DNA of 64,000 nt from Escherichia coli (GTDB lineage: Bacteria > Pseudomonadota > Gammaproteobacteria > Enterobacterales > Enterobacteriaceae): the NCBI RefSeq assembly GCF_024223415.1, contig NZ_CP100500.1; one strand, written 5' to 3'. This document shows, in pieces, positions 15,806-18,800 of the stretch. Each line of letters opens with the position of its first letter. The first letter of the stretch is position 1. Position numbers: made by a program.

Positions 15806-18800
15806 TAATGAGGGACGTATTTGTATTAGTCGCGACTTGATCTGACACATGGCCTTGAAAGGTTGAGAGTTACCGGTTTTGATATGAGTGTCGAATCCTT
15901 ATCCAAAACAAGAGGTAACTCTCATGCTTCATACTGCCAATCCCGTCATCAAACACAAAGCCGGTTTGCTCAATCTGGCTGAAGAACTCAGCAACGTATC
16001 AAAAGCCTGTAAAATCATGGGCGTTTCGCGTGATACGTTTTATCGTTACCGCGAACTGGTCGCTGAAGGCGGTGTGGATGCGCAGATTAATCGTAGTCGC
16101 CGCGCTCCTAACCTTAAGAACCGTACCGATGAGGCAACTGAACAGGCTGTTGTTGATTACGCCGTCGCTTTCCCGACACATGGTCAGCACCGGGCCAGCA
16201 ACGAGCTGCGTAAACAGGGGGTTTTTATCTCCGACAGTGGTGTCCGTTCTGTCTGGTTACTCCATAACCTTGAGAATCTCAAAAGACGATACTGAACAAA
16301 TTTTATCAGGTGACGTTCCGTAAAAAGTTGTATGGAGTTCTCGATGCAGTCGGCGCGACTATCAGTACCCCCGCTGAACCCTGGACTATCGGGCCGCCGT
16401 ACTGGGGCATGTCACCCTGGCGTGCCGCTGGTTTTCCGCTAATGGTTTATTTCCTCTTTCTTTCCCGGCAAGAATTTATTTTAATCCGGAAGGATTATTT
16501 ATTTTCAGATAGGGACTCACATTAAACACGTAACATTTTAATTAATGCATGGCTGAATATGTATTACACAATGTCAGATATCGTAAAAGACCAGTGCAAT
16601 TCTATGTAAACTCTCTGACTGTTTATTTTATTTGTTGTTTCAGGGTCGGAACTCACCCTCAATAAACAACTGAATACGAGTAGATATTCATCGTCTGAGC
16701 TATATGGCTTTACACAATAGCCGACATGTCTTTTCTCAGTCAGAAATTTTACTTTTCCTCACTACGAAGTTGACGACTTCGATATGGGATAGACTCTTAA
16801 TTCAAGCAATTACTCTGCACAAGCATCAGGCAATCCAGCTCCAATATTTGTTATAAAATAATGCGTAACATTAATTTCACCAACAAAAAAAAGGTTTACG
16901 CTATCCCCTTGCCCTGGTATTTTACCATATTTACACCACACTTTTTTTGTATCTGGATCATTCTCTGATACGATTTTCGCCACTTGTTCCCTGGCCCTCA
17001 CTGTCAATGTTTTCTTAAACCTACCCCCATCATCATTTGTTAGGGAAAAATAAGAAAAAAATAATCATCTTCTACATTTGTGTATATTGATATATCCACC
17101 GCTACGTGCGGAAAAAAATCTGGGAGCCATGTAAAAACTCCATCATTTTCTGGTATTGCCATATAGTTTATGTAATGTTTACTTACAAGAGATTCATCTT
17201 TGTATAAATAAAGATAAGTAATTACGCATAAAACAACAATGATTATAATAGCAAAAATAAATATTATCATCTTTGATAGATTACTTGAGATAGCCAGCAT
17301 CTTGTAAAGCCTTTATCGTTTTTTTATGCTCTGGATTAATATAATCACTACATCTATCTGAGCAATCTGTTGTTGATGGACATGTCAACCCATGGTCATT
17401 TACAGCCAAGTCTTTTTTATTATCTTCAATCATTTCAGAATGGGATAGCTTTACTTTTCTGCCGTACATACCGAACAGATTTAACCCGTAATCTCTAATC
17501 TCTTTTTCATAACCCAGCCCTTTCGCCGATCGGCTAACACCAGCGTCATTTAATTTAGACACTCGACAAAATGCCATACAATGGAAAAATTGATCAGTCC
17601 CACCTAAATTTAATCTCTTCATATCTTCATAAGTATCAGATAATATATCCCATGCTCTTTGATGGTTTAGTTGATCTTTTCTTCTTATTAGCGCTACATC
17701 TGCGGGACTTAACCCTAATGGATCAATACCATTCACCGGATTCAGCGGATACGCATACAGACTCCATCCCCCCTCCAGCCCTATCGGGTCCTGAGTGATA
17801 TACCGCCCCTGCAACGGATCGTAGTACCGGTTCCGGTTGTAGTACAGCCCCGACTCCTTATCATACTGCTGCCCCGGCAGCCGGTACGGCTGGTGCAGGT
17901 GATGCGGGTTCTCCTCATTAAGCTGGTTGCCCCATTCATCATATTCCGCGCTCCACGCCGTATTGCCGTCTTCACTGATAAGCGCCAGCGGCAGGCCCCG
18001 GTAGTCACAGTGATAAAGATGTATTTTTCGCTCAGGCAAATAAACCGGCTCTATCTGTGCCGCCAGCCGCTCCACCGTCAGCCCGCACTGCGCAAGCCAC
18101 TGGCGGCTTTCACTGCTCACGCAGTTTGCCCGGATTTCCCCCTCCAGCCTGTCCAGCAGCCCCACCAGTTCAGCCGGGAACACCACACCGTGGCCGTCTT
18201 CGCTCCCTTCCTGCTGCAGCTTCTCCGCCAGGCTGCGGCACTGCGCTTTCTCCCGTTCACCGTTGTCTGTTTCGATGCGGATGAGCGGCGCGAAGCTCCC
18301 CGGCTGGTATACCGTCTGGATACGCGTGGTGTCGGTCTGTACCGTCGTCAGCCGGTCGCCGTCCCATCCGTACCACGTCACCTCCGGTTTACGCGACAGC
18401 GACATCCATCCCGTCAGGTCACGCTCCCGCCGCCATACCCGTTTCGCCATTCGCCGTCCCAGCGGGTCACAGAGGTAGCGGCTCTCGACCAGTGGCTCGC
18501 CATGCTGTATCCGCGTGTGGAACACCAGGCGGTGCTGGCTGTCGTAGTGATAGTGGTGGGTCCGCTCGTCGTCCGTCCGTATCACACCCGCCGGGATGCG
18601 GTCCGTCTTCTCCGTCAGCCTGCCGTATTCATCGTGGCGGTAGACATAGTGCGCATCCTCCGCGATGCGGTTATCCGGCCACACTGTGAGTGTACTGTCC
18701 GGGTGCAGCTCCGGGTCCGGCAGCCGGTTTCCCGCCGGGTCGGTCGCATACGGGATGCGGATGTCCAGGTCCGGTGCGAGGGTGCGCACGCTCTCCAGCC

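What the first reader, a model, noticed from the sequence alone, without database searches (positions are those of the whole stretch)
16345..16443. Orphan rhs 5-prime fragment with an ATG-to-ATT start change downstream of the main rhs gene
About 100 bp is homologous to the first 33 codons of the main rhs gene (21421-21520), in the same orientation, with the initiator position reading ATT. It is a remnant of a past rhs duplication or rearrangement and could still serve as a recombination target for rhs tip exchange.
Basis: seen in the sequence. Interest (0 to 1): 0.3.

Follow-up and report, generated by a model that had tools for sequence, protein, structure and literature searches.

The report
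Known dead rhs gene stub (ylbI)
The 97-base stretch is the already annotated E. coli pseudogene ylbI, the dead first 32 codons of a second, divergent Rhs toxin gene that was cut off by a deletion into an insertion-sequence remnant; it is an ordinary genomic relic and not a working recombination target.

Summary
Window 16347-16443 (minus strand) aligns without gaps and in frame to the first 32 codons of the main rhs gene (21425-21521): 77/97 identical, blastn E = 2e-19, and ATT sits where the ATG would be.

It is not new. The stretch is 96/96 identical to pseudogene ylbI (b4632) of E. coli K-12 and occurs in about 2,790 of 5,426 complete E. coli genomes, always with ATT.

It is not a copy of the neighbouring rhs gene. 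It is 74-79% identical to the K-12 and window rhs 5' ends (at most about 82% across E. coli), and most differences are synonymous. The closest intact relative found is a Pseudocitrobacter faecalis rhs gene (86/96).

The coding remnant ends at codon 32/33, fused to an internal point of an IS481-family transposase gene (the ylbG remnant). That makes the break an illegitimate deletion, not an IS-end event. Only 20 of 70 PAAR-motif positions survive, and three residues invariant in the intact genes compared are changed (M1I, T13P, G29V).

Tip exchange is not supported. The fragment has no 3' core, tip or immunity gene, and the longest exact run shared with the main gene is 17 nt. None of 5,426 genomes shows the predicted recombinant.

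Verdict: known, ordinary relic; low interest.

The parts
16347..16443 (-). ylbI: 5' remnant (32 codons plus 1 nt) of a PAAR-Rhs gene. It is 96/96 identical to K-12 pseudogene ylbI (b4632).
   Evidence: 77/97 to the main rhs, E = 2e-19; 96/96 to K-12 ylbI. (annotated as a partial CDS or pseudogene). (PAAR_motif positions 1-20 of 70, 18.9 bits, below the cut-off of 27).
16441..16443 (-). ATT at the former initiator position (ATG in every intact homologue compared).
   Evidence: 0 of 2,796 records match an ATG version perfectly.
16444..16461 (-). Possible retained ribosome-binding region (AAGAGGAAATAAACC before ATT). BLAST alignments to other rhs genes extend 12-18 nt upstream of the start, but only 10-11 of 18 bases match, so this is weak evidence.
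15821..16348 (+). IS481-family element remnant; its ORF ylbG is at 15888..16295. The left inverted repeat starts at about 15822. There is an internal deletion of about 463 bp. The 3' 144 nt of the transposase gene and the right end are missing. The last IS-homologous base, 16348, abuts ylbI.
   Evidence: (only the HTH_29 domain remains; full-length relatives have HTH plus rve).
16462..16809 (-). AT-rich spacer between the YbbD-family gene and ylbI. Positions 16492-16674 are 85% identical to a spacer at the RhsE locus.
16810..17301 (-). YbbD-family (PF26610) presumed immunity gene of the rhs tip. In the window it is split by a 1-nt deletion at 17054.
17281..21521 (-). Main rhs gene (PAAR N-terminus, DUF6531, YD repeats, RHS core, toxin tip). 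In this window it is disrupted by a 38-bp tandem duplication at 20772-20809.
21425..21521 (-). 5' end of the main rhs gene, the stretch homologous to ylbI.
15816..21943 (.). Whole Rhs island (IS remnant, ylbI, spacer, immunity gene, rhs, upstream AT-rich region). It is absent from the selU-ybbP empty site of strain Nissle 1917.

Best explanation
The stretch is the pseudogene ylbI, a non-functional relic of a second PAAR-Rhs toxin gene that once lay downstream of the present rhs gene at the E. coli rhsD locus (ybbP-selU).

That gene belonged to an rhs lineage distinct from the extant E. coli rhs genes. It diverged from them by about 20-25%, mostly at synonymous sites, so most of the divergence accumulated while it was still a working gene (inferred).

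An illegitimate deletion with at most 2 nt of microhomology removed everything after codon 32. The other deletion endpoint lies inside the transposase gene of a converging IS481-family element, whose remnant is ylbG (the junction is shown; the mechanism is inferred).

The stub then, or at the same time, acquired ATG>ATT and two further missense changes at residues invariant in the intact genes compared. The junction arose once and is now present in about half of complete E. coli genomes.

It keeps only 20 of the 70 PAAR-motif positions and has no YD-repeat core, tip or immunity gene. It therefore cannot make a toxin, and it is a very poor recombination partner.
For: - **Identity:** 96/96 identical to K-12 ylbI (b4632), which is annotated as a pseudogene. 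PGAP calls it 'partial, missing C-terminus' in a strain whose 15850-17050 region is identical to the window.
- **Homology to rhs:** 77/97, E = 2e-19, in frame. PAAR_motif positions 1-20 of 70.
- **Divergent lineage:** 13 of 17 differing codons are synonymous third-position changes. Identity to K-12 rhsA-D and to the window's rhs is 71-76 of 96. Across 5,426 genomes, records are either >=95% identical (ylbI itself, 2,792 records) or <=82% (intact rhs genes), with nothing between 90 and 95%.
- **Closest intact relative:** Pseudocitrobacter faecalis rhs, 86/96. It shares the CTG Leu27 codon and differs by 7 synonymous changes plus M1I, T13P and G29V. Those three positions are invariant in all eight intact genes compared.
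- **Junction:** IS481 homology ends at 16348 in every hit. That corresponds to a point 144 nt before the transposase stop codon and about 200 nt before the IS right end.
- **Single origin:** the IS remnant plus ylbI shows 0-4 differences per 623 nt among strains whose adjacent selU differs by 1-4.6%.
- **No coding constraint:** a natural variant has a 1-nt deletion inside the stub.
- **ATT is fixed:** 0 of 2,796 records match an ATG version perfectly.
Against: - With only 96 nt, the closer relationship to Pseudocitrobacter (86 against 76-79 matches) is not statistically decisive (Fisher p about 0.1-0.2).
- No genome was found that still carries the intact ancestral gene at this locus, so the existence of a full-length second rhs gene is inferred rather than observed.
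- The IS remnant is mosaic: its two pieces match different IS481 relatives best. More than one rearrangement may therefore have occurred.
- Lack of function is inferred from sequence only. Published genome-wide data list RNA polymerase (RpoD) and FNR binding near ylbI (PMC3946193, PMC1802558).
Confidence: 0.85

Rival explanations
1. One reading: the fragment is a local duplication of the 5' end of the adjacent rhs gene, and it remains a substrate for homologous recombination or tip exchange with that gene.
For: It has the same orientation, lies 5 kb from the main gene's start, and shows clear homology.
Against: Identity is only 79%, with mainly synonymous differences, and it is no closer to the neighbouring gene than to unlinked rhsA-C. 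It is closer to a Pseudocitrobacter gene. The longest exact shared run is 17 nt, below the roughly 23-27 bp minimal efficient processing segment for RecA-dependent recombination in E. coli (established knowledge; Shen and Huang 1986). Tip displacement operates on the 3' core and needs very high identity (PMC2935791). A crossover between these direct repeats would delete rhs and its immunity gene, and 0 of 5,426 genomes carry that product.
Confidence: 0.04
2. The stub is a functional element: a micro-ORF translated from AUU (44 codons) or from the internal AUG at codon 12, or a transcribed leader or antisense RNA driven by the AT-rich upstream region.
For: A good Shine-Dalgarno-like AAGAGGAAA lies about 6 nt upstream of the ATT. 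Genomic SELEX lists an RpoD holoenzyme site between ybbD and ylbI, and ChIP-chip lists an FNR peak assigned to ylbI. The sequence is 100% conserved in 2,492 records.
Against: The conservation is no higher than in the adjacent dead IS remnant, so it reflects the recent common origin of the island. ATT is a very weak initiator. The simple sigma-70 scan found no promoter-like site in the 16444-16800 upstream region. A natural frameshift variant exists. About half of E. coli genomes lack the element entirely. No Rfam family matches. AT-rich horizontally acquired DNA commonly binds RNA polymerase non-productively (general knowledge).
Confidence: 0.05
3. The fragment derives from a stand-alone PAAR gene or another PAAR-fused toxin rather than from an rhs gene.
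For: Only the first 32 codons survive, and they lie within the PAAR region, which is also found outside Rhs proteins.
Against: Every nucleotide-level relative found is the 5' end of a gene whose downstream sequence, where held, is rhs-like (269 nt to 2.9 kb; L005, L007, L008, K-12 rhsA-D). The E. coli-wide BLAST hits under the match are all annotated as RHS core proteins. The fragment lies inside an Rhs element.
Confidence: 0.04

Closest known systems
ylbI (b4632), annotated pseudogene at the rhsD locus of E. coli K-12 MG1655
   Same: Identical sequence (96/96), including the ATT. It has the same neighbours (ybbD upstream, ylbG and selU downstream) and the same junction.
   Different: Nothing in the fragment itself differs. 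The surrounding element differs: K-12 carries an extra rhsD-CT/ybbC tip module, and its main rhsD is intact. In the window the main rhs is broken by a 38-bp duplication.
Orphan (displaced) rhs C-terminal tips such as ylbH at the same locus, or the S. Typhimurium orphan rhs
   Same: Both are silent rhs-derived fragments lying downstream of a full-length rhs gene in the same orientation.
   Different: Orphan tips consist of a partial 3' core, a toxin tip and an immunity gene. They are nearly identical to the main core and can be re-attached by homologous recombination (PMC2935791, PMC3967940). ylbI is a 5' fragment with no core, tip or immunity gene, is only 79% identical to the main gene, and cannot be re-attached productively.
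Intact PAAR-Rhs genes (K-12 rhsA-D; Pseudocitrobacter faecalis rhs downstream of a 671-aa ORF that was not identified here)
   Same: The N-terminal PAAR-region codons 1-32 are shared (28-29 of 32 amino acids).
   Different: ylbI lacks a start codon, 50 of the 70 PAAR-motif positions, DUF6531, the YD-repeat shell and the toxin.
IS481-family insertion sequences (ylbG remnant)
   Same: The sequence abutting ylbI is 94-96% identical, piecewise, to IS481-family elements on E. albertii and E. coli plasmids. The left inverted repeat and the HTH part of the transposase are retained.
   Different: It is internally deleted and 3'-truncated. It lacks the DDE (rve) domain and the right end, so it is immobile.

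Membership tests
Rhs / PAAR-Rhs gene (as a remnant or pseudogene) | Sequence homology to the conserved Rhs N-terminal (PAAR) region | tested here: met
   77/97 nt, E = 2e-19, to the main rhs. 28/32 amino acids identical. PAAR_motif positions 1-20 of 70 (sub-threshold, 18.9 bits)..
Rhs / PAAR-Rhs gene (functional member) | Complete ORF with a start codon, a full PAAR domain, a YD-repeat core with the RHS core motif, and a C-terminal toxin | tested here: not met
   ATT sits at the start position. Homology stops after codon 32, the frame closes after 44 codons, and IS481 sequence follows..
ylbI (b4632) orthologue | Same sequence and same flanking genes as the K-12 pseudogene | tested here: met
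   96/96 identity. K-12 locus positions 6952-9100 match window 17989-15841 at 99%..
Orphan rhs tip (C-terminal displacement module) | Partial 3' core nearly identical to the upstream core, followed by a variable toxin tip and an immunity gene | tested here: not met
   The fragment matches only the 5' end of rhs. It has no 3' core, no tip and no downstream immunity gene; the downstream sequence is the IS481 remnant and selU..
Homologous-recombination substrate with the main rhs gene | A long uninterrupted identical stretch (roughly >=23-27 bp) and recombinant products in natural genomes | tested here: not met
   The longest exact run is 17 nt. 0 of 5,426 genomes carry the predicted deletion recombinant. 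The length threshold comes from established knowledge and was not measured here.
IS481-family insertion sequence (neighbouring ylbG) | Both terminal inverted repeats and an intact HTH plus DDE (rve) transposase | tested here: not met
   The left end and the HTH part are present. The rve domain, the last 144 nt of the transposase gene and the right end are absent..
Translated small ORF | Evidence of translation, or of coding constraint beyond that of neighbouring DNA | tested here: inconclusive
   The stub is no better conserved than the adjacent dead IS remnant, and a frameshift variant exists. Expression cannot be tested with these tools.

The most novel reading that the evidence does not exclude
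The stub, with its Shine-Dalgarno-like sequence and an AT-rich upstream region reported to bind RNA polymerase and FNR, may still be transcribed. It might be translated from AUU or the internal AUG into a peptide of about 34-44 residues, or it might act as an antisense or leader RNA over the ylbG remnant. That would give the relic a secondary regulatory role.
Probability: 0.04. Interest if true: 0.3.

Novelty: already known. Interest (0 to 1): 0.08.

Why it matters
It matters little. The element is an annotated pseudogene of the best-studied bacterium.

The analysis adds a few small points of natural history:
- The stub comes from an rhs lineage otherwise absent from E. coli.
- It was cut off by a deletion ending inside an IS481-family transposase gene, not by an IS insertion.
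- The ATT is fixed in all carriers.
- The whole junction has a single recent origin and has spread to about half of complete E. coli genomes.

The analysis also corrects the idea that such a 5' stub could take part in Rhs tip exchange.

Tried and rejected
- **Intact ancestor elsewhere (genome representatives).** A degenerate-codon scan of 100,044 species representatives gave three hits. One was the Pseudocitrobacter rhs gene (86/96). The other two were E. coli-derived contigs in mislabelled metagenome-assembled genomes.
- **Intact ancestor elsewhere (metagenomes).** A metagenome scan for an ATG-bearing, ylbI-like 5' end gave one contig (L008) that is no closer (76/96).
- **Arrival with the YbbD immunity module.** I tested whether ylbI travelled with this module. 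In other taxa, homology to the module stops at window 16797, before the spacer and ylbI, so this idea was rejected.
- **IS-end truncation.** I tested whether an IS481 terminus truncated the gene, by insertion or adjacent deletion. The junction lies inside the transposase gene, so this was rejected.
- **ATG alleles.** I tested whether any E. coli genome retains ATG, using a 96-nt query with ATG placed centrally. No perfect match was found.
- **Natural recombinants.** A chimeric query for a ylbI x rhs 5' recombinant found none.
- **Known RNA families.** The Rfam scan of 15700-17400 gave only a sub-threshold psRNA2 hit outside the fragment.
- **Promoters and terminators.** The scan gave nothing above shuffle expectation.
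- **Literature.** Searches for ylbI found only listings in genome-wide tables.

Full report
**1. Context.** The window is the E. coli rhsD locus, inverted relative to K-12. The gene order is gcl-allR-allA-allS-selU(mnmH) on one side and ybbP-ybbA-tesA on the other. On the minus strand there is a main rhs gene (17281-21521), a YbbD-family presumed immunity gene (16810-17301), an AT-rich spacer and then the reported fragment. On the plus strand, converging on the fragment, is ylbG (15888-16295), preceded by selU.

**2. Check of the observation.** Read on the minus strand, 16443..16347 is ATT AGC GGA AAA CCA GCG GCA CGC CAG GGT GAC ATG CCC ... It aligns without gaps and in frame to the main rhs gene from its ATG (21521..21425).
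- Identity is 77/97, or 76/96 over 32 codons. blastn within the window gives E = 2.35e-19, and every other hit has E > 2.
- Homology stops abruptly after codon 32: identity over the next 48 nt is 9/48.
- The initiator position is ATT against ATG.

**3. Identity of the fragment.** It is 96/96 identical, including the ATT, to the K-12 MG1655 pseudogene ylbI (b4632; NC_000913 529497-529592). That gene lies between pseudogene ybbD and ylbG, exactly as here. In a strain whose 15850-17050 region is identical to the window (Combat11I9), PGAP annotates the same 96 nt as 'hypothetical protein; incomplete; missing C-terminus'. From my own knowledge, EcoGene and EcoCyc describe ylbI as an Rhs-family pseudogene fragment. 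The only literature mentions found are rows in genome-wide tables: an RpoD-holoenzyme SELEX site between ybbD and ylbI (PMC3946193) and an FNR ChIP-chip peak assigned to ylbI (PMC1802558).

**4. What is left of the protein.** The translation ISGKPAARQGDMPQYGGPIVQGSAGVLIVAPT matches only positions 1-20 of the 70-position Pfam PAAR_motif, at 18.9 bits against a cut-off of 27. The frame then runs into unrelated sequence and closes after 44 codons. There is no DUF6531, YD-repeat core, RHS core motif, toxin tip or immunity gene. All of these are present in the main gene.

**5. The fragment is not a copy of its neighbour.**
- Of the 17 codons that differ from the main gene, 13 differ only by synonymous third-position changes. 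That pattern indicates long divergence under purifying selection, not a recently duplicated stub.
- Identity to K-12 rhsA, rhsB, rhsC and rhsD and to the window's rhs is 71, 74, 74, 75 and 76 of 96.
- Across 5,426 complete E. coli genomes, the best match per record is either >=95% (2,792 records, which is ylbI itself) or <=82% (annotated RHS core proteins). There is no 90-95% class.
- A degenerate-codon scan of one genome per bacterial species found one closer intact gene, an rhs gene of Pseudocitrobacter faecalis that lies downstream of a 671-aa ORF I did not identify. It matches 86/96 and shares the CTG Leu27 codon, which differs at all three bases from the AGA of the E. coli gene.
- That gene differs from ylbI by 7 synonymous changes plus M1I, T13P and G29V. 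These three positions are invariant in all eight intact genes compared, so they are best read as decay of the stub.
- With 96 nt, the closer relationship to Pseudocitrobacter is suggestive rather than significant (Fisher p about 0.1-0.2).

**6. The ATT.** I used a 96-nt query centred on the start codon with ATG in place of ATT. It matched 2,796 records, and none matched perfectly; the top hits all carried exactly one mismatch. The ATT is therefore fixed among carriers, and it is derived relative to intact homologues.

**7. How the gene was truncated.**
- The sequence abutting ylbI is an IS481-family remnant. Window 15821-16288 matches an E. albertii plasmid IS481-family element at 96% (L003 1470-1937). 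Window 16280-16348 matches a later part of the same transposase gene at 81% in L003 (2401-2469) and at 94% in an E. coli plasmid element (L024 1501-1569).
- Comparing L003 with L024 defines the IS as about 1.2 kb with TGTATTAG... inverted repeats. The window retains the left end, at about 15822, which is 13 nt after the selU stop codon.
- In every hit, IS homology ends at 16348. That point is 144 nt before the transposase stop codon and about 200 nt before the right IS end.
- The ylbI junction (...CTCGATGCA|GTCGGCGCG...) therefore joins the interior of the transposase gene to rhs codon 33 with at most 2 nt of microhomology.
- This is an illegitimate deletion. It removed the 3' part of the IS and essentially the whole converging rhs gene. 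It is not an IS insertion or an IS-end-mediated adjacent deletion. The junction is shown directly; the event is inferred.
- The IS remnant also has an internal deletion of about 463 bp, and its two pieces match different relatives best. More than one rearrangement is therefore possible.

**8. Upstream side.** BLAST alignments to other rhs genes run 12-18 nt upstream of the start, through AAGAGGAAATAAACC, but only 10-11 of 18 bases match. Retention of the ribosome-binding region is therefore only weakly supported. Further upstream is an AT-rich spacer (34-38% GC). Positions 16492-16674 of it are 85% identical to the spacer between a ydcD-like gene and the ISAs1 H-repeat at the RhsE locus. Homologues of the rhs tip plus YbbD module in other taxa stop at window 16797. 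ylbI therefore did not arrive as a passenger of that module.

**9. Population picture.**
- About half of complete E. coli genomes carry the structure (2,792 records with ylbI; 2,809 with the selU-ylbG-ylbI block).
- The rest diverge immediately after the selU stop codon. Strain Nissle 1917 has an empty site of 127 bp of REP-like sequence between selU and ybbP, which defines the island as window 15816-21943.
- Occasional strains have lost ylbI through later IS1- or IS3-associated deletions.
- Among diverse carriers, the IS remnant plus ylbI shows 0-4 differences in 623 nt, while the adjacent selU differs by 1.2-4.6%. The junction therefore arose once.
- The near-perfect conservation of ylbI is a regional property shared with dead IS DNA, not evidence of selection on the stub. 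One strain carries a 1-nt deletion inside the stub.

**10. Recombination-target claim.**
- In the displacement model for Rhs tips, exchange occurs through the conserved 3' core and requires very high identity (PMC2935791).
- ylbI is a 5' fragment with 79% identity and a longest exact run of 17 nt to the main gene. That is below the roughly 23-27 bp usually needed for efficient RecA-dependent exchange in E. coli (established knowledge).
- Because the two copies are direct repeats, a crossover would delete the rhs gene and its immunity gene rather than exchange a tip.
- A chimeric query representing that product (300 nt upstream of rhs, the stub, then 300 nt of IS remnant) found no genome among 5,426 with the two halves joined.

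**11. Other checks.** No Rfam family matches the fragment. The promoter and terminator scans give nothing above shuffle expectation.

**12. Verdict.** It is a decayed 5' stub of a lost, divergent PAAR-Rhs gene, fused by deletion to an IS481 remnant. Interest is low.

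Noticed in passing
window 20772-20857: A perfect 38-bp tandem duplication lies in the main rhs gene (2.3 copies here, 1.3 in strain Combat11I9). It shifts the frame and splits the gene into 249-aa and 1164-aa ORFs, so the main rhs gene of this strain is itself disrupted, unless this is an assembly artefact.
   Followed up: partly
window 16810-17301 (site 17054): The YbbD-family (PF26610) presumed immunity gene has a 1-nt deletion relative to strain Combat11I9. This splits it into 86-aa and 65-aa ORFs, as in the K-12 pseudogene ybbD.
   Followed up: partly
window 17738-17989 and K-12 locus L002 6008-6951: K-12 carries an extra 944-bp rhsD-CT plus ybbC module. In the window, the tip that is an orphan in K-12 (ylbH) is still attached to the main core. 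This is a textbook case of C-terminal tip displacement.
   Followed up: partly
window 15816-21943; L011 7409-7548: Strain Nissle 1917 (B2) has an empty site between selU and ybbP containing 127 bp of REP-like sequence instead of the 6.1-kb Rhs island.
   Followed up: partly
window 16492-16674; L020 7001-7185: Part of the AT-rich spacer upstream of ylbI is 85% identical to the spacer between a ydcD-like gene and the ISAs1 H-repeat at the RhsE locus of strain RS571. 81 records fall in the 80-90% identity class, one of which (RS571) was examined.
   Followed up: partly
window 15821-16348: The IS481-family remnant is mosaic. The first 468 nt are 96% identical to an E. albertii plasmid element but 86% to an E. 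coli plasmid element. The last 69 nt show the reverse pattern, 81% against 94%.
   Followed up: partly
window 15750-15921 (minus strand): A sub-threshold Rfam hit to psRNA2 (RF02349; 31 bits against a gathering score of 65, E = 2e-5) overlaps the selU 3' end and the IS left end.
   Followed up: no
L004 (NZ_CP069916.1), L006 (CASFSC010000074.1), L007 (JALHET010000378.1): Three public records carry DNA closely matching the E. coli rhsD locus: the 511-base query matches the 'Klebsiella oxytoca plasmid unnamed5' record at 100%, the Alistipes MAG contig matches the window at 98.9%, and the Lentisphaerae MAG contig matches the window's rhs at 94% (its 5' end is 96/96 identical to K-12 rhsD). They are probably contamination or mis-binning.
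   Followed up: no
window 16406-16426 (plus strand): A terminator-like hairpin followed by GCTGGTTTTC lies antisense within ylbI, downstream of ylbG. The scan found 2 such sites where 1.3 are expected by chance, so it is probably fortuitous.
   Followed up: no
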